Part shown: positions 22,201 to 34,200 of the stretch, in pieces | How positions within the stretch are numbered: the first letter of the stretch is position 1 | Layout: every line of letters starts with the position of its first letter | From: a bacterium | GTDB lineage: Bacteria > Fidelibacterota > Fidelibacteria > Fidelibacterales > Fidelibacteraceae | NCBI GenBank assembly: GCA_963676395.1 | Contig: OY781066.1 | Location: 1,568,001-1,632,000 of the forward strand | Reading direction: 5' to 3' | Length of the DNA stretch: 64,000 nt | Position numbers: made by a program

Positions 22201-25200
22201 GAGATGATCCTGAAAATCAGAAGTTTTATATTGAGTTTAGATCTCATCTTCTGGTTCAATGGTATCTTTTGTTCGATTAATAAAAATTATCAACAAGGAT
22301 AAGGCAATAAATACAAGCCCCAAAAGAATAATGGCAATGGGGTAAAGTCTAACATTTTGTTCATTTATGGCAATAAAACGATATCGATCAAAATACAGAG
22401 TATAGGATTCGACAATGATAAAGATAAGATAATAAAAGGGGAATATCATCCAATATAGTAATAGATCATATTTATATGTGTTTTGGGGGATGCTTATATA
22501 ATTATCTGCCAACAGAAAGATTGGAAAAGAAATATGAGCAAAATAATAAATAACTTTTTGCAAACCGTAAATATCAAAATCTTGATGAAAAAACACAACG
22601 AATACCAAGGCTGAAACTCCGGAGTAAACCAGAGTAGCCCCTCTGAAATTATTGTTGGGTGCCCATTTGGGATTTCCGCTTAACTGGGCGATACTTAAGA
22701 AAAGGAAAATGATCGTAGTCATAAGCATTGATACGACAGAAAAATATCCCAATATCTTGAGTATATTAATATAATTCAGTTCATATAAGGGATTTATGAA
22801 CAGAATATATATCATGCAAAATATAGTAATCAAAGATACTATGATACGATAAGTAAGAATTTTCTTTTCTAGTTCCTTTGTCATAGTCTAAAATAGAAAT
22901 GTTTTGTAGAGGAACAAAGCATAAAGTGACCTATGGAAAACATTTGAGTGATCGAATAAGGGAATGATTGAATGGCGAATATTGATAAAGGACACAGAAC
23001 GGTGTTTTATAATTTGGATTTGAGAATTGAGAGGATATAAAAAAGGGCGACTAAAGAGCCGCCCGTAAATTATCTGAGATAATGATTATTTAATAATTGT
23101 CCATCGTTGATCAATTTGGGTTGTTGGCCCAAACTCCAGGATATAGTCACGCAATGCTTCGCGCATCATGCGTCCGGTATTAATTCGTTTCTCAACCGGG
23201 ATAGTCGTTAAGCGATCATAGCCCGAGTTTCCTTCGGCAAGATAATCGGATACGGCGATCTTGTAAATGGCTTTTGGATCAAATTCTTTACCTTGTATCT
23301 TTTTAATGGTAGCGCGTTCACGGTCGGGATTGCGTTTATCAATAACAACCTCAATACCTGAAGCAAGCATGCCGCGAGAATTACCCTTTACGCGATCTTC
23401 GATTAGCTCGTCCAGTTCGGCACCTGTCATTTGAAATACAACAATGCGGTTTCCAAAAGGCAAGAATCGGAAAAGAGCCTCGTAGGTTAAAGGACCGGCT
23501 TCAAGGTCGGAACGCAGTCCACCGTAATTGGAGAAAGCCACATCGGCATCTCCGGCCCAGGCAACTGCATCACAAAGCAGGTTACCCAAAATTGATTGAC
23601 CTTCGTTTGCGCGACGCAGAGGTGAGGGCAAGACGGTCAAAACTTGGTCAAAGCCTTCTTCGGCAACAGCTTTGCGGGCTTCGATCATGGCATCTACATC
23701 TTCATCGATCCAGAATTCATCTTCCAGTAGTGTAACAAAGGAAGATCCATCCACCTCAAAATCATAACCGGCGAGGGTTTTAGTTTTTTTATGGATGTAA
23801 AAATTCACCATACCCAAGTTTGTTCCGTTACCGTAGTTCTGAAAGATCAGAGTATGGTTAATGGGATCTTCGTAGGGTTCGGTAAAACCTTTGTGAACGT
23901 GGCCTGTGAACATGACATCGATACCGGGAACCGATACGGCAATTTCCATAGCGGGAGCACCCATTTTGTTTTCATCCGGCCATTCGCCACGCAGGAGCTC
24001 TTCATGAAGTTTTGCGGCTTCTTCATCGCGATTGTAAGGAGTCCAGGAGTGCGTAGATAAAATAATTACATCCGCACCTTCTTCCTTCATAATGGGAATC
24101 CATTTCTTGGCTGTTGTGATCTCGGGTAAAAAGGTAATACCTTCCAAGTGCTCCGGAAAGCTCATAGCCGGTGTTACGGAAGTACCGATACCCAAAATAC
24201 CCACTTTTATACCGTAGATATCTTTAATGATATACGGTTTTAAAAAATCGGCAATTTCACCGGTCTCGGAATTGACGATATTGGCACCAAGGAAAGGAAA
24301 ATTTGCTTCCTTAGCACGTTTGCGTAGTTCCGTGTGACTCTTGTCAAAGTCGTGATTTCCGGCTGTTAAAAGGTCGTATCCAATCGCATTCATGAATTCC
24401 ACAACCGCAGCGCCTGCAGTTTTTGAACCGACGGGTGTTCCTGAAAAGAAATCACCTTCATCGATAAGCAGCGTGCCAAAACCTTCGGCTTCCGCTTGAG
24501 CACGAATGGTTTTTACAATGCGTGCAATCGCTGGAGCTGACCCGATCTTTGGCGGAAACTGTGGATTCATAAAGGTTGCTTCGGTGCGGGGAATACCACC
24601 ATGCACATCATTGGTGAACATCACCATAATGCGCTGGTACTCAGAGGCAGGGTATTTTTCCGCAAAGAGCGCGCCGATCAGCAGAGTGAAAACGACGATC
24701 TTCTTTATTGTATTCAGCATAATGTGCCTTTTACTTTTTCGTTATAACATTCTTCTTTATCAGAAGCTGTACGATAATGAAACATTCGCCCTTAAACCTT
24801 GTTCCTTGACTTTGTCAAGCGAGGTTCTAACTTCTCCTTCAACAGGGAAAAGATCTTTGTAATAGTACATGTTCTGATAAATAGCCAGGCCTAGATCCAG
24901 TGTTAAGTTATCATTGGACCAGCCTGAACCCAAGTTAATGGTCATGCGGTTCATGTCATTGTGCATGGGGTTTTCTTCATATGAAAATCCGAAACGAAGA
25001 GGAACACCGGTAAAGAATTCATGTTCAACACCGGCACGAAGTGCCCATGATGCCGAGAATTCAGGAGAATACAGGTTCACAAGTGAGTCTGCAGAATCAA
25101 AGTAACCGATGGCGTATGATTTCCAGTCGGTAATATCAAATTGTGCGAACAGAACCGTACGTAATTCGTTTTCGGGAATATATTTAACAGAGAATGAATA

Positions 25201-31200: not shown

Positions 31201-34200
31201 TAAAATCGGATCCGCTGCCTGACCAATAATCGGCGCCATCGGCGAGTTTGTAATAGTATTTTCCGTTTGTCGTATCGGTTGCATCGGTAATATAGTAATT
31301 ATCAAGAGAAATGGCCGAAGCGGTCGGATTCTTGATTTTTACATATTCGCCGGTGGAAGGCTGGAGCACCACTTCAGTGAAGATAAGGTGCCCCTGAGCC
31401 ATTGCCAATATCGGCAAAAGGAAGAGGATGAATAGATTGCGTAGTTTCATAGTCACTCTTCTTATTTAATGAGAACAACTTTCTGAGTTGCGACATTGTT
31501 GTCAGCATTCAAGCGAATAAAATAAACACCTGATGTGAAGTTTGACGCATTCCAGACGTATTTATAAACACCGGCTTGAGCGTAACCCGATGAAAGGACA
31601 CTCATGTTCTGACCGGCGATATTGTAAACCGAGATCTCATAATCGGATGCTTCCGTTAATGAGAATTCAATGGTTGTTGAAGGGTTAAAGGGGTTAGGGT
31701 ATGCTTTGTTAATTGCAAAGCTTTCGGGGGTACAGTCTTCGCAAATGCTTACATCATCTGTAATGTCATCGCTGTAACCAACGAGTAATTGATGTTCGCT
31801 TGAGTATTTGCTGCCTACACCTGTGATGGCATATTCTGTACCAATGGTGTAAGTTGAAGGATCAATTCCGGTGGTTGGCCATACTTTAACAATGGCTGAG
31901 TCAGTTCCCGAGGTTAAGATCATATTCTTGGAGGATGAGAAATCTTGAACTTCGGAAAGTGTACCGGTAACGGTAACCAATGTACCTTCGTAATTATCGT
32001 TGTTGGCTGTTGCCGGCGTTGCCGAAATGGCATCGGGGCGAGCATTACCGGTAGAAACAATCGTATAACTGAAATTTTTCAGTTCAACAGTTGAGTAGTA
32101 AAGGTCAACTTCACCGACCAACTTAACCTTTGTGCCTTTTGTCAAGTCAGCTAATAATTCGTAGTTGTATAGATTTAAACCACGACCTGATTCATCTTGA
32201 ATGTAGCAAGAGGTCATATCGTTGCGAAGAACGCCGGCGCCGATGGTGATAATACCTTCGATGGTTTTTGTTTGGCCGTCCCATGCAGTAATATTGGTAT
32301 GGATGTCGGCGATATTTGTGACCGTACCTGCTACAAGCATAGTTTTAAGCGCAGAATTAACGGTTTCACCGTTTCCTGTAGCTGCTACATAATATTCAAG
32401 TTCGATGTCACCTGTACTCAATGCGGGGATATTACCGGCATAAGTATTGCCATTATCTAACCACATGTCAGCTTCGTTTGTCTGAGTTCCGCCGGTACCA
32501 TAAAACACTTTAACGGTGCTGGGTGCGGGAACACCGGTGTCGGGAGTGATATCAATGGTGATACCAATTTCTGAACCGGCTTGTGGGAAAGCTGTTGTAA
32601 CGGTTGCATTTGCAAAGTTATAAGCAACAGGGCCCGCTGTATGTGAACCAAGATTGCTTGTTACATCGATGTCGTAAACGATCCATTCAGAATTTTCTTC
32701 CGTTGTACCGGCTGAAGAAGCCCAATCTGAGTTACCGGCTTCTACAGAAGCTTTACGAACCAAGGTGTGATTTACTGCAGCGCCTGTAACTCCGGCTGCA
32801 TCAAAGTTGGCATCGGAATTCGGATCGCCGATCACATCAACCAATACATCGTTTAAAAATAGACCTAAAGCATCGTTTCCGTTAAACCAGGTAATGTCGC
32901 TGGTAACATCAGAATTACCTGTAATGTTTGCATCGCTGGCACCATCATTGGTGATCACGTAAACATCATTACCGGCAAGCGTACCGCTAAGAACAAGCTC
33001 TGAACCTGATCCCCAGCCGCCACCATTTGATGCGCGAACGACTTTATAATCACCAAGATTAACTGAGTTTTCATCTAAGTTGTAAATTTCAACCGCTTTA
33101 TTGCTTGATGAACCTTCAATATATTCAGAAAAGATCAGCTTAGTTTCTTGTACTTCGCGAACTGCGATAACAACTGTATCTCTTGAGATTTCGCCCAAAC
33201 TGTCAGTTACGATCAATTCAAAATGAAAGTCTTGAACAGTGGCCGGGGCTGTAAATGTTGCTATGGCTGTATTTGCATTGCTTAGAGTTGGTGAAATTTG
33301 AGTTCCCCAAGACATGGCCCATTGATAAGCAGCAATATTGTCATTAGGGTCTGTAGAGCCTGAACCGTCTAAGGTGACAGTTTCATTTACAAAAACCAAT
33401 TGGTCTGCACCTGCATCAGCTACAGGAGGATAGTTTGTTCCAGCAGCTAATACCTGGCCCGTATTGATGGCGCCGGGTGAGTTAGCAGTTGCTGCCCATG
33501 GAGAACCATCTAAACCAATTCGGGATAATGATGTGTCGGCAGCACCAACCCATTTATCGTCTCTATCTACTGAAGCGATTTCCATTGGATTACCCGAAAG
33601 GTCATTTAATTCACCTTCGTAGGTAACGGCATCTACAACTGTACCGTCTACGGTAAGTTGAACGCCGTCAGGGGATCCATTTTGGATTAGGTTTTCTGCA
33701 GGAGTTACTGTCATGTCAACATTTGTGACACCGGCAACGCCAATAACATAAAAACCATATCCGTCAGCTTCGTTTGTTAGTGTAATATTACCTACGGTAA
33801 TGGTCTTGTATGAAGCACCATCATTACCATTGACCAAATCAATGACAACGTTGTTGTAGGTTCCGGCAGTACCTGCCAGTTCAATAAACTCAGCGGCATC
33901 TGTGCCGGGCTGATCGTAATCAATCTCGTTGATGAACAATTGTCCATACGCTGCTACAGACAGTACGAGTAGCATGAGAATTACAAGGTTCCGTTTCATT
34001 TAAATTCCTCCATTAAATTATTTTAGTTTTTTTCTGCCAATTGATTAAAATACAAGATTTTAGCTCGCAAAGAAATAAATTTATTATATAATTAAAGTAT
34101 ATTGTATAAAAAGCTGTATGGCATAATAAATTACAATTGTTCGATGATGTATCGAGAAGATATTAAAATAGTCGAAAAGTTGGTAAAAAGAGAGTTGAAA

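What a model noticed while it worked through the whole genome (the two positions that open the first line are those of the whole stretch)
23086..33999. Phylum-wide six-gene outer-membrane cluster built round a ComEA-HhH-fused 24-strand barrel: candidate DNA capture/uptake [...]
Six co-directional genes (g01352-g01347) form a cluster kept in the same order across Fidelibacterota: a T9SS-exported lamin-tail-domain (LTD) protein, a second LTD protein with two nucleic-acid-type OB folds and a CTD, its PorV/PorQ-like anchor barrel, an 819-aa protein with two N-terminal ComEA-type helix-hairpin-helix modules fused to a usher-sized (~24-strand) outer-membrane barrel, a FadL-like barrel, and a UshA-type 5'-nucleotidase. 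The genome has ComEC, ComEA, ComF and DprA but no secretin or type IV pilus genes, so this cluster is a candidate machine that catches DNA at the surface and passes it, or its breakdown products, through the outer membrane.
Evidence so far: g01349: no Pfam/NCBIfam row; AF2 with 38-row alignment, pLDDT 80; res 21-87 match ComEA 8dss_B Z 9.7, rmsd 1.8 A, 65 aligned, 22% id; res ~196-819 match porins and the FimD/PapC usher pores (Z 15-11; 367-376 aligned, rmsd 4.6-5.0); about 24 strands in the DSSP string. g01348: model pLDDT 86, all-beta barrel, weak Pfam Toluene_X E 8e-6. g01351: LTD + Ig + two OB folds + CTD (pLDDT 84, call 116); res 350-548 folded alone, pLDDT 95, pTM 0.90: both halves match nucleic-acid-binding OB folds (5gro_B Z 12.7, rmsd 2.6, 92 aligned; 6pqh_A Z 12.6; MCM N-domains, RPA, Teb1, Stn1-Ten1, PolC OB, Z 12.5-10). 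g01350: PorV/PorQ family E 7e-14; complex of g01350 with the last 105 aa of g01351 ipSAE 0.89, be [...]
(Added by a program. Inside this text positions count along the whole contig: contig position 1,568,001 is position 1 of the stretch shown here. "Call 12" and the like, gene names such as g00115 and contig names such as C1 are that model's own, and its searches are not shown. The text may have been shortened before it was handed on; [...] marks where a part breaks off. The agent that wrote the report below was given it as the finding of a first reader that could run no searches.)

Follow-up and report, generated by a model that had tools for sequence, protein, structure and literature searches.

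The report
Outer-membrane DNA-scavenging gene cluster
A six-gene operon that looks built to catch nucleic acid outside the cell, pass it through a large outer-membrane pore that carries its own DNA-gripping modules, and strip it for nutrients; it is an untested cousin of DNA-uptake systems recently found in Bacteroidota.

Summary
The six minus-strand genes are real, tightly packed and bracketed by two terminator-like hairpins. Domain calls hold: two T9SS lamin-tail/OB-fold surface proteins, a PorV-like anchor barrel, an 819-aa protein with two homologous ComEA-type HhH modules before a ~24-strand barrel, a FadL/TodX-family barrel, and a two-domain 5'-nucleotidase. All five neighbours kept their order in 27 of 27 testable loci, but the barrel was found in only 98 of 201 sampled genomes of the phylum. 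It also occurs, with the same core order, in other phyla. New here: relatives carry PLD-type or EEP-type nucleases with plain signal peptides, and some carry ABC transporters and nucleoside phosphorylases, in the same operon. Loop lengths put the HhH modules in the periplasm. The OB protein is related to DUF5689 (DdbD and the Riemerella transformation protein). Secretins coexist with the cluster in most families, so "no secretin, hence this is the uptake machine" does not generalise. Best reading: a nucleic-acid utilisation locus that imports DNA or oligonucleotides for breakdown; a role in transformation is possible but secondary. It is a new variant of a known kind. Three earlier notes of this scan reached the same reading on other genomes. 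There is no experiment and no expression data.

The parts
31462..33999 (-). g52, 845 aa: signal peptide, LTD, PKD, LTD, ExeM-like region, OB-like region, type-A T9SS C-terminal domain. No nuclease domain.
   Evidence: LTD 6.7e-16; K319L-like PKD 8.6e-15; Por_Secre_tail 6.1e-12; TIGR04183 2.8e-13; ExeM N-terminal part 8.8e-22 (77 bits, far below the 1300-bit cut-off).
29486..31456 (-). g51, 656 aa: LTD, Ig-like stretch, tandem OB region (about 350-548; DUF5689-related), CTD-like tail (last ~105 aa).
   Evidence: LTD 1.9e-9, tRNA_anti-codon 2.3e-8, DUF5689 1.3e-4; of 58 proteins in this slot, 43 hit OB, 41 LTD, 15 DUF5689 (best 2.1e-14); the OB region hits DUF5689-bearing proteins at 4.7e-14 and 4.4e-11.
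28584..29486 (-). g50, 300 aa: PorV/PorQ/PorP-like small barrel, predicted anchor for the g51 tail.
   Evidence: PorV_fam 7.4e-14 (below cut-off), PorP/SprF 5.5e-6; ipSAE 0.89, best control 0.00.
26109..28568 (-). g49, 819 aa: signal peptide, two ComEA-type HhH modules, ~24-strand outer-membrane barrel ending in ...DYRF.
28293..28508 (-). g49 HhH module 1 (residues 21-92).
   Evidence: ComEA 8dss_B Z 9.8, rmsd 1.8, 64 aligned; family profile against ComEA 8dfk 8.6e-7 and EEPD1 9yi2 1.7e-13.
27993..28217 (-). g49 HhH module 2 (residues 118-192), a homologue of module 1.
   Evidence: hhalign of module 1 against module 2, probability 98%, E 2.8e-13, 65 columns.
26112..27980 (-). g49 barrel (residues 197-819): 24 long strands, 12 mostly long loops alternating with 11 turns of 2-5 residues.
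   Evidence: DSSP of the model; segment table.
27552..27671 (-). g49 loop L3 (residues 300-339), strongly conserved and basic (…PRKSGYGWRKR…).
   Evidence: mean conservation 0.71; 12 positions at 90% or more; K+R 7 against D+E 3.
26823..26960 (-). g49 loop L7 (residues 537-582), the most conserved stretch of the family (…FDNPYQRSFSNY.RYK…).
   Evidence: mean conservation 0.75; 21 positions at 90% or more.
24760..26088 (-). g48, 442 aa: FadL/TodX-family barrel, a remote homologue of g50.
   Evidence: Toluene_X 7.7e-6; family profile against 3dwo 8.2e-13, TbuX 1.1e-12, TodX 2.7e-12, PorV 1e-7; g48 family against g50 family, probability 98.7%, E 3e-16.
23086..24720 (-). g47, 544 aa: signal peptide, then metallophosphoesterase plus 5'-nucleotidase C domain (UshA type). 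No lipobox, no CTD.
   Evidence: Metallophos 8.7e-12; 5_nucleotid_C 3.1e-31; UshA model 7.3e-55 (186.7 bits, below the 600-bit equivalog cut-off).
34083..34110 (-). Promoter-like site upstream of g52 (TTTATA-16-TATAAT). GGAGG lies 8 nt before the ATG.
   Evidence: Weak: promoter-like sites in the region are not above chance (25 found, 28.3 expected).
34270..34299 (-). Terminator-like hairpin (13-bp stem, T run) ending the upstream HU gene. It marks the upper boundary of the operon.
23045..23064 (-). Terminator-like hairpin (8-bp stem, 6 GC pairs, T run) 22 nt after the g47 stop. It marks the lower boundary of the operon.

Best explanation
The operon is a locus for using extracellular nucleic acid.

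Step 1: two T9SS-exported proteins (g52, g51) display LTD and OB/DUF5689-type nucleic-acid-binding domains on the cell surface. g51 is held by its C-terminal domain on the PorV-like barrel g50.

Step 2: DNA or oligonucleotides, cut outside by T9SS Endonuclease-I proteins encoded elsewhere in this genome, enter the ~24-strand barrel of g49. Its two tethered ComEA-type HhH modules sit at the periplasmic mouth. They bind the incoming strand and bias its movement inward, as a ratchet, without TonB or a pilus.

Step 3: in the periplasm the polymer is broken down. In relatives this is done by PLD-type or EEP-type nucleases encoded in the operon. The 5'-nucleotidase g47 releases phosphate and nucleosides, which a NupC-type carrier takes in.

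g48, a FadL/TodX-family barrel, is a conserved part whose role is unknown.

Shown by computation: the domains, the conserved gene order, the accessory genes and the predicted topology. Inferred: DNA as the ligand, passage of a polymer through g49, the ratchet, and the nutritional purpose.
For: Operon structure: tight gene spacing and two flanking terminator-like hairpins.

Surface binders: g52 and g51 match the LTD and OB parts of ExeM/NucH extracellular nucleases but have no catalytic domain. In the g51 slot, 43 of 58 proteins hit OB and 15 of 58 hit DUF5689.

HhH modules: the family profile hits ComEA at 8.6e-7 and 1.5e-6. The structure match to ComEA 8dss_B is Z 9.8, rmsd 1.8, 64 aligned. 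The two modules are homologous, E 2.8e-13.

Topology: 24 strands; odd-to-even connections are mostly long (up to 47 residues), and all even-to-odd connections are 2-5 residues; the C-terminus is ...DYRF. This places residue ~196 and the HhH modules on the periplasmic side. The most conserved segments are loops L3 (basic) and L7.

Context: all five neighbours are in order in 27 of 27 loci. The core order persists at about 25% identity in other phyla. Of 66 loci with at least 5 kb downstream, 58 have the metallophosphoesterase, 22 an EEP domain and 10 a small PLD protein. The PLD proteins and the MPE::EEP fusions have plain signal peptides and no CTD. ABC transporter genes, a pyrimidine-nucleoside phosphorylase and a PNP_UDP_1 protein follow in some loci.

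Own genome: two Endonuclease_1 proteins with CTD, NupC and SprA.

Against: There is no experiment and no expression data.

The window's own operon has no nuclease gene. Eight of 66 loci (L123, L130, L133, L143-L146, L150; some are near-duplicates) have the core without any phosphoesterase or nuclease downstream.

HhH-like folds do not always bind DNA: photosystem II PsbU chains appear among the matches. OB and LTD domains bind other ligands too.

The barrel matches only generic large barrels, so neither pore size nor gating is known.

The ddb paper reports that DNA was a poor sole source of C, N or P for B. thetaiotaomicron, so 'nutrition' may be too simple.

The counts of loci include relatives that are not independent.

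The complex score may reflect likeness to solved PorV complexes.
Confidence: 0.6

Rival explanations
1. The cluster is chiefly the outer-membrane stage of natural transformation. It brings intact DNA into the periplasm for ComEA, ComEC and DprA, in a lineage without a type IV pilus or secretin.
For: In Riemerella anatipestifer a DUF5689 protein, an outer-membrane barrel and an HhH protein are each essential for transformation, and no pilus is involved (PMC8459023; passages read). The ddb paper reports that a ddbB-like nuclease gene neighbours that transformation locus, so a nuclease in the operon does not exclude this role. The window's genome has ComEC, ComEA and DprA and no Secretin or T2SSE match. 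All 21 genomes of its genus lack a secretin match.
Against: Secretins coexist with the cluster in most families that carry it: f5 26/26, f9 26/30, f12 4/4, f22 4/4. ComEC is kept where g49 was not found: f19 19/20, f25 6/6, f14 7/9. The most constant accessory gene is a nucleotide phosphoesterase (58 of 66 loci), and nucleases, nucleoside phosphorylases and ABC importers join the operon in relatives. No com gene lies in or beside the operon.
Confidence: 0.2
2. DNA is degraded entirely at the surface. g49, g48 or both only let mononucleotides, nucleosides or very short oligonucleotides through. The HhH modules do not handle a translocating polymer; they might, for example, dock periplasmic partners.
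For: This genome has two T9SS-secreted Endonuclease_1 proteins and no nuclease in the operon. Known systems such as Vibrio Xds/Dns with OmpK and UshA work this way (recalled, not checked here). g48 belongs to a family of small-molecule channels.
Against: Two DNA-binding-type modules tethered to the periplasmic mouth of a 24-strand barrel have no obvious use for mononucleotides. In relatives the in-operon PLD and MPE::EEP nucleases have plain signal peptides and no CTD or lipobox, which implies a polymeric or oligomeric substrate in the periplasm.
Confidence: 0.13
3. The cluster does not act on nucleic acid. It would be a T9SS surface-adhesin and porin cluster for another polyanion or polymer, or a means of holding extracellular DNA on the cell as matrix.
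For: LTD, OB, Ig and FadL-like parts are all versatile. No ligand has been shown. The 5'-nucleotidase family also hydrolyses UDP-sugars and NAD (family names).
Against: Independent nucleic-acid signals converge: ComEA-type HhH, nucleic-acid-type OB and DUF5689, ExeM/NucH likeness, and EEP and PLD nucleases and nucleoside phosphorylases in relatives' operons.
Confidence: 0.05

Closest known systems
Bacteroidales DNA-utilisation locus ddbABCDEF (Sharan et al., PNAS 2025, PMC12478041; outline, Results and Discussion read; supplements not seen)
   Same: Both are six-gene loci for exogenous DNA. Each has a surface DNA-binding protein of the DUF5689 / tandem-OB kind beside an outer-membrane transporter. 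Nucleases with SPI or SPII signals lie in the locus (in relatives of the window's cluster). Both have PUL-like logic: bind, cut, import, cut again.
   Different: The ddb transporter DdbC is TonB-dependent with a CarboxypepD_reg domain. Here it is an unrelated ~24-strand barrel with no TBDT, plug or CarboxypepD_reg match and with two fused ComEA-type modules. The surface proteins here are T9SS cargo held by a CTD on a PorV-like barrel, not lipoproteins. A 5'-nucleotidase and a FadL-family barrel are core parts here. The window's own operon has no nuclease.
Riemerella anatipestifer transformation genes RA0C_RS04920 (DUF5689), RA0C_RS04915 (outer-membrane barrel) and RA0C_RS02645 (HhH protein) (Huang et al. 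2021, PMC8459023; passages read; Table S4 not seen)
   Same: The same three functions are present: a DUF5689-type surface protein, an outer-membrane barrel and HhH DNA-binding modules. In both cases the bacterium belongs to the FCB group and uses no pilus-based uptake.
   Different: There the HhH protein is a separate gene elsewhere in the genome and the barrel is TBDT-like. Here HhH and barrel are one polypeptide in one operon. The role there is transformation, shown genetically; here the context points to catabolism. I could not compare sequences with the Riemerella proteins because none was available through the tools.
ComEA with the PilQ secretin in Vibrio and Neisseria (PMC3879209; search listing and abstract only)
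   Same: A periplasmic HhH protein binds incoming DNA and promotes its entry. Module 1 of g49 has the ComEA fold (Z 9.8).
   Different: ComEA is a small free or membrane-anchored protein working with a secretin and a retracting pilus. Here two modules are covalently tethered to a monomeric barrel, and no pilus ATPase or secretin was found in this genome.
ExeM / NucH / Xds extracellular nucleases and B. subtilis YhcR (ExeM: PMC6085458, search listing only; YhcR architecture recalled)
   Same: The domain vocabulary is the same: LTD, OB, EEP nuclease, metallophosphoesterase with 5'-nucleotidase. g52 and g51 match the non-catalytic parts of ExeM/NucH. JGI names g51 relatives 'YhcR with UshA esterase domain'.
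   Different: Those are single multidomain enzymes. Here the domains are spread over an operon, the binders lack any catalytic domain, and a dedicated outer-membrane conduit is added.
T9SS cargo-anchor pairs (PorV, PorQ or PorP/SprF with a C-terminal domain)
   Same: g50 is PorV/PorQ/PorP-like and is predicted to bind the g51 tail. g52 has a type-A CTD. SprA is present.
   Different: g50 scores below the family cut-offs. A second homologous barrel (g48) of FadL/TodX type is also conserved.

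Membership tests
ddb-type DNA-utilisation locus / Riemerella uptake locus | Surface DNA-binding protein of family DUF5689 (PF18942) | tested here: inconclusive
   g51 scores 22.3 bits, E 1.3e-4, below the 28.6-bit cut-off; the genome scan gave 18.1 bits. Of 58 proteins in the same slot, 15 match, best 2.1e-14. The OB region hits DUF5689-bearing proteins at 4.7e-14.
ddb-type DNA-utilisation locus / Riemerella uptake locus | TonB-dependent-type transporter (CarboxypepD_reg, plug, 22-strand barrel) next to the DUF5689 gene | tested here: not met
   g49 has no Pfam or NCBIfam match to TBDT, plug or CarboxypepD_reg at E up to 0.1. Likeness to TBDT structures is at fold level only and is no better than to porins and ushers.
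ddb-type DNA-utilisation locus / Riemerella uptake locus | Secreted or periplasmic nucleases encoded in the locus | tested here: not met
   There is none in the window's operon. It is met in relatives: EEP in 22 and PLD in 10 of 66 loci.
ComEA (HHH_3, TIGR01259) | ComEA-type helix-hairpin-helix DNA-binding domain | tested here: met
   As a single sequence it is below cut-off (22.1 bits against 27). The family profile hits ComEA 8dfk at 8.6e-7 and 8dss at 1.5e-6. The structure match is Z 9.8, rmsd 1.8, 64 aligned.
ComEA (HHH_3, TIGR01259) | Small stand-alone periplasmic or membrane-anchored protein | tested here: not met
   The modules are the N-terminus of an 819-aa barrel protein. A separate 123-aa ComEA exists elsewhere in the genome.
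Chaperone-usher ushers (FimD/PapC) | Usher sequence family with plug and N- and C-terminal periplasmic domains | tested here: not met
   No Usher family match. Only the barrel aligns: 3ohn_B Z 13.1, rmsd 4.7, 372 aligned, 9% identity.
T9SS type-A cargo | C-terminal sorting domain (TIGR04183 / PF18962) | tested here: met
   g52: 49.7 bits against a cut-off of 23; PF18962 46.1 bits against 27. The g51 tail is only CTD-like (FlgD_ig 0.011; PorU C-terminus 3.5e-5).
PorV/PorQ/PorP family | Family model above cut-off; binds a CTD | tested here: inconclusive
   g50: PorV_fam 52 bits against a cut-off of 90. The predicted complex with the g51 tail scores 0.89 against a control of 0.00, which may reflect likeness to solved PorV complexes.
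FadL/TodX (Toluene_X) for g48 | Family match; 14-strand barrel with N-terminal hatch | tested here: inconclusive
   The single sequence scores 25.1 bits against a cut-off of 29.7. The family profile hits 3dwo 8.2e-13, TbuX 1.1e-12 and TodX 2.7e-12. Hatch and strand number were not examined here.
UshA-type 5'-nucleotidase for g47 | Metallophosphoesterase domain plus 5'-nucleotidase C domain, exported | tested here: met
   Both Pfam domains are above cut-off (46.3 and 109.1 bits), and a signal peptide is visible in the sequence. The UshA equivalog cut-off is not reached (186.7 against 600), so the substrate is not assigned.
ExeM/NucH extracellular nucleases | EEP catalytic domain after the LTD and OB parts | tested here: not met
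   g52 and g51 match only model positions 17-200 and 29-132. They have no Exo_endo_phos match.

The most novel reading that the evidence does not exclude
g49 is a new kind of outer-membrane DNA translocon. It would be a monomeric ~24-strand barrel with two ComEA-type modules tethered at its periplasmic mouth that rectify the diffusion of a DNA strand. It would work without pilus, secretin or TonB. It would be fed by T9SS-anchored OB/LTD receptors, and it is spread through Fidelibacterota, Calditrichota and several candidate phyla. The same conduit would serve both feeding and, through ComEA and ComEC, gene acquisition. That would explain how secretin-less members of these phyla could take up DNA.
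Probability: 0.35. Interest if true: 0.85.

Novelty: new variant of a known kind. Interest (0 to 1): 0.7.

Why it matters
How DNA crosses the outer membrane without a type IV pilus and secretin is poorly understood. The only worked examples are the TonB-type DdbC/DdbD pair and its Riemerella relatives in Bacteroidota. This cluster offers a second, structurally different solution: a large barrel with built-in ComEA-like modules. It is conserved as an operon in abundant, mostly uncultured marine and sediment phyla.

If it imports DNA, it bears on three things: the turnover of extracellular DNA, which is a large phosphorus and nitrogen pool in oceans and sediments; the nutrition of SAR406-type bacteria; and routes of gene flow.

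It is directly testable. The HhH and OB domains are small and soluble. The barrel can be reconstituted. A g51-type protein occurs in the cultured Caldithrix abyssi DSM 13497.

My searches of the held literature found no paper describing an HhH-fused outer-membrane barrel. That library lacks most subscription journals.

Tried and rejected
1. Metagenome scan with alignment A2 failed because no stretch was conserved enough. I repeated it with the single protein P0166.
2. Expression: no RNA holder is listed for window:24700-34400; read laying was not used. The first try was over the size limit.
3. Foldseek on the N-terminal model gave no match at E up to 0.001; the best was ComEA 8dss_B at 9.6e-3. 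VIA-align gave the clear match.
4. Secretin and cluster as alternatives: rejected, because they coexist.
5. ComEC co-occurrence: uninformative. ComEC was found in 170 of 201 genomes and is near-universal. The three g49-positive genomes without a ComEC match are 72-89% complete.
6. High GC as a sign of recent transfer: rejected. The cluster is GC-richer than its flanks in 36 of 42 long loci, across hosts with locus GC from about 31% to 63%.
7. High GC3 as a sign of high expression: not supported. The 12 highest-GC3 genes I scanned are ordinary metabolic genes, not ribosomal ones.
8. DHH/DHHA1 genes 3-5 kb downstream in 7 loci: they have no signal peptide, so I take them to be cytoplasmic; their N-terminus recalls RecJ, which is my recollection and comes from no call. 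I do not count them as part of the system.
9. The downstream ORFs at 22237-22884 and 21603-22259 as members: rejected. A terminator-like hairpin follows g47, and they have no Pfam match at E up to 0.01. Among the loci printed, the 218-aa ORF has a co-located homologue only in L021, and the 215-aa ORF has none.
10. Sigma-70 promoter scan: not above chance (25 found, 28.3 expected). Terminator-like sites: 21 found against 12.9 expected.
11. Short hits to residues 1-200 of g49 as free HhH proteins: the ones I looked up come from contigs of 1-3 kb and cluster with proteins of about 800 aa, so they are fragments.
12. Usher or TBDT membership of g49: rejected.
13. A small PLD nuclease elsewhere in the own genome: only one 455-aa two-domain PLD protein was found.

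Full report
**What is there.** Window 23086-33999 holds six minus-strand ORFs of 845, 656, 300, 819, 442 and 544 aa. I call them g52 to g47. They are separated by 5, -1, 15, 20 and 39 nt. A 13-bp terminator-like hairpin (34299-34270) closes the upstream HU gene. An 8-bp GC-rich hairpin with a T run (23064-23045) follows the g47 stop. A GGAGG lies 8 nt before the g52 start. The six genes therefore look like one transcription unit. The two small ORFs downstream are outside it.

**Domains.**
- g52: LTD, PKD, LTD, an ExeM-like stretch, a weak OB signal and a type-A T9SS C-terminal domain.
- g51: LTD, an OB fold above the Pfam cut-off, a weak DUF5689 match and a CTD-like tail.
- g50: PorV/PorQ/PorP-like, below the family cut-offs.
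- g49: only sub-threshold HHH_3 and comEA matches as a single sequence.
- g48: weak Toluene_X.
- g47: a signal peptide, a metallophosphoesterase domain and a 5'-nucleotidase C domain.

Both LTD proteins align to the non-catalytic N-terminal parts of the ExeM/NucH extracellular nuclease models. Neither has a nuclease domain.

**The central protein, g49.** A 45-sequence alignment gave a model with pLDDT 81.7 and pTM 0.77.

The family profile hits the HhH repeats of EEPD1 (1.7e-13) and ComEA (8dfk 8.6e-7, 8dss 1.5e-6) in the PDB. Residues 1-205 folded alone (pLDDT 88.6). They match ComEA 8dss_B at Z 9.8, rmsd 1.8 Å, 64 aligned, and the Tex HhH domain at Z 9.6, rmsd 1.9, 66 aligned. Foldseek alone was weak. 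Residues 20-92 and 118-192 are homologous to each other: hhalign probability 98%, E 2.8e-13. So there are two tandem ComEA-type modules.

From residue 197 the model has 24 long strands. It matches large barrels of many families about equally:
- OmpT 5oyk_A: Z 13.9, rmsd 4.4, 209 aligned.
- MtrB 6r2q_B: Z 13.4, rmsd 5.6, 370 aligned.
- FimD 3ohn_B: Z 13.1, rmsd 4.7, 372 aligned.
- A SusC-type chain, 5t3r_D: Z 12.6, rmsd 5.6, 391 aligned.

This shows a big barrel and nothing more specific.

**Which side are the HhH modules on?** Connections after odd-numbered strands are mostly long (up to 47 residues). All eleven connections after even-numbered strands are 2-5 residues. The protein ends in ...DYRF. 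By the usual rule for BAM-assembled barrels, which I take from established knowledge, the turns and both termini are periplasmic and the loops are external. Strand 1 then starts in the periplasm. The second HhH module ends about 10 residues before it, so it sits at the periplasmic mouth. This is an inference from a predicted model.

The two most conserved parts of the family are loops. L3 (residues 300-339) has 12 positions at 90% or more and is basic. L7 (residues 537-582) has 21 such positions. I suspect they fold into the lumen as a constriction or gate. That is conjecture.

**Anchoring and the second small barrel.** g50 with the last 105 aa of g51 gives ipSAE 0.89 against a best control of 0.00. 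That mark was reached by 116 of 157 solved complexes and 2 of 215 mismatches; the runs agree in at least 97% of contacts; partner pLDDT is 91. The model supports binding but does not show it, and solved PorV complexes may be remembered.

The g48 family profile hits FadL-family structures (3dwo 8.2e-13, TbuX 1.1e-12, TodX 2.7e-12) and PorV (1e-7). It is also a remote homologue of the g50 family: probability 98.7%, E 3e-16. The role of g48 is open.

**Distribution.** g49 was found in 98 of 201 sampled genomes of the phylum. That is 60 of 141 high-quality genomes, 38 of 78 genera and 17 of 30 families. 'Phylum-wide' is therefore too strong.

Where the flanks suffice, all five neighbours are present in the same order in 27 of 27 loci. 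The family reaches further. Source names include Calditrichota, Edwardsbacteria, Eisenbacteria, Gemmatimonadota, Elusimicrobiota and WOR-3. An exhaustive search found 280 cluster representatives at E up to 0.001 among 1.84 billion.

Loci fetched with an Edwardsbacteria-type member share about 25% identity with g49. They keep the order: OB/CTD protein, PorV-like barrel, HhH barrel, ORF of about 370-470 aa, metallophosphoesterase. Of 17 testable loci, tblastn found the g50 type in 17, the g51 type in 15 and the g47 type in 13.

**The accessory genes decide the reading.** I scanned 23 and then 81 neighbouring ORFs, chosen by size pattern from 25 loci, against Pfam. I then searched all ORFs of all 66 loci that have at least 5 kb downstream, using HMMs built from those hits. 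Counts for genes that are co-directional and lie within 9 kb downstream:
- Metallophosphoesterase related to the N-domain of g47: 58 of 66.
- The 5'-nucleotidase C domain: 30.
- An EEP nuclease-type domain: 22. It usually appears as a 633-700-aa metallophosphoesterase::EEP fusion followed by a second EEP protein.
- A PLD-type protein of about 185 aa: 10.
- DHH/DHHA1: 7.
- None of these: 8.

Several loci are near-duplicates, and relatives are not independent.

The PLD proteins and the fusions have plain signal peptides and neither CTD nor lipobox, so they are probably periplasmic. The second EEP proteins have lipoprotein signals. Two PHP-domain proteins end in CTD-like tails. The DHH proteins have no signal peptide, and their N-terminus recalls RecJ (my recollection, from no call), so I set them aside.

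Some loci continue with two ABC permeases, a solute-binding protein and a pyrimidine-nucleoside phosphorylase (L118, L121, L125). L041 continues with a PNP_UDP_1 protein. Two loci have an EEP-LTD-dockerin protein.

The domain set of ExeM/Xds-type nucleases is thus spread over the operon, with a dedicated outer-membrane conduit added. The presence of periplasmic nucleases implies that polymer or oligomer, not only mononucleotide, reaches the periplasm.

**The window's own genome.** There is no nuclease in the operon. Elsewhere the genome has:
- Two Endonuclease_1 proteins with T9SS tails.
- Exported EEP proteins.
- SprA.
- A NupC-type nucleoside carrier.
- ComEC, a 123-aa ComEA and DprA.

No Secretin or T2SSE ATPase match was found; the genome is 95.3% complete and is one contig. 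ComF and pilins were not tested.

Across the phylum that does not hold. Secretin matches occur in 141 of 201 genomes. They coexist with the cluster in most families that carry it:

| Group | Secretin | g49 |
|---|---|---|
| f5 | 26/26 | 19/26 |
| f9 | 26/30 | 22/30 |
| f12 | 4/4 | 4/4 |
| f22 | 4/4 | 4/4 |
| sister genus g2 | 5/6 | 6/6 |

Only the window's own genus has none, 0 of 21. ComEC is present in 170 of 201 genomes, including families where g49 was not found: f19 19/20, f25 6/6, f14 7/9. Together with the near-constant phosphoesterase, this makes salvage or nutrition the better-supported conserved role.

Transformation is not excluded. In Riemerella anatipestifer a DUF5689 protein, an outer-membrane barrel and an HhH protein are each essential for transformation (PMC8459023; passages read). 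The related ddb locus of B. thetaiotaomicron serves DNA breakdown instead (PMC12478041; Results and Discussion read).

**Link to those systems.** Of 58 proteins in the g51 slot, 43 match the OB family, 41 match LTD and 15 match DUF5689, best 2.1e-14. The OB region of g51 finds DUF5689-bearing proteins at 4.7e-14 and 4.4e-11. It also finds a 1017-aa protein of the cultured Caldithrix abyssi DSM 13497 at 39% identity.

The transporter is different. DdbC and RA0C_RS04915 are TonB-type. g49 has no such match, and it carries the HhH function in the same chain.

**Novelty.** My literature searches found the ddb and Riemerella papers but nothing on an HhH-fused barrel. The library lacks most subscription journals, and I did not see the supplements of either paper.

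Three earlier notes of this scan, on other genomes, describe the same family with the same reading. I saw them only after stating my own reading. They are not independent evidence.

**Verdict.** I rate the cluster as a locus for using extracellular nucleic acid, with an unusual and undescribed outer-membrane conduit. Everything rests on computation.

Noticed in passing
window 23086-33999, against genome G000: At 44.8% GC the cluster is the GC-richest 11-kb stretch of the 2.34-Mb genome (mean 38.1%; rank 0 of 2325 windows). Five of its six genes lie at the 88th-99th percentile of GC3. In relatives the cluster is GC-richer than its flanks in 36 of 42 long loci, so this is a property of the cluster and not recent transfer. 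The cause is unexplained.
   Followed up: partly
window 17403-19763 (-): A third T9SS protein with fn3, LTD and a type-A CTD (786 aa) lies 3.3 kb below the operon. In two same-genus loci (L029, L031) its homologue follows g47 almost directly.
   Followed up: no
L021:8482-10311 and L024:3406-4923: In two same-genus relatives a gene with DUF4062, HATPase_c_4 and Fic-like_C domains (609 and 505 aa) is inserted between g48 and g47. It looks like an intruding accessory gene inside the operon.
   Followed up: no
L029 and L031 (also G122 and G126): In two assemblies several cluster genes, g49 among them, appear split by frame changes or single stop codons (1 TAA, 1 TGA). Whether this is decay or an assembly error was not examined.
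   Followed up: no
window 20627-22884 (-): Three overlapping ORFs (215, 218 and 330 aa) follow the operon's terminator. The first two have no Pfam match, and the third has a weak DUF1207 match. The 218-aa one recurs downstream of g47 in L021.
   Followed up: partly
phylum sample: Family f11 (13 genomes of about 1 Mb, 95-99% complete where listed) had no match for g49, ComEC or Secretin. It appears to be a streamlined lineage. The window's genus had no secretin match in any of 21 genomes, while sister genus g2 had one in 5 of 6.
   Followed up: no
G000:C1:188292-189521 (outside the window): A NamZ (former DUF1343) gene is among the highest-GC3 genes of the genome. A DUF1343 protein was one of the genes essential for transformation in Riemerella. 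No link was tested.
   Followed up: no
window 34324-34596 (-): An HU-type DNA-binding protein gene lies directly upstream and has its own strong terminator. Its tblastn query brought up no co-located homologue in the related loci printed.
   Followed up: partly
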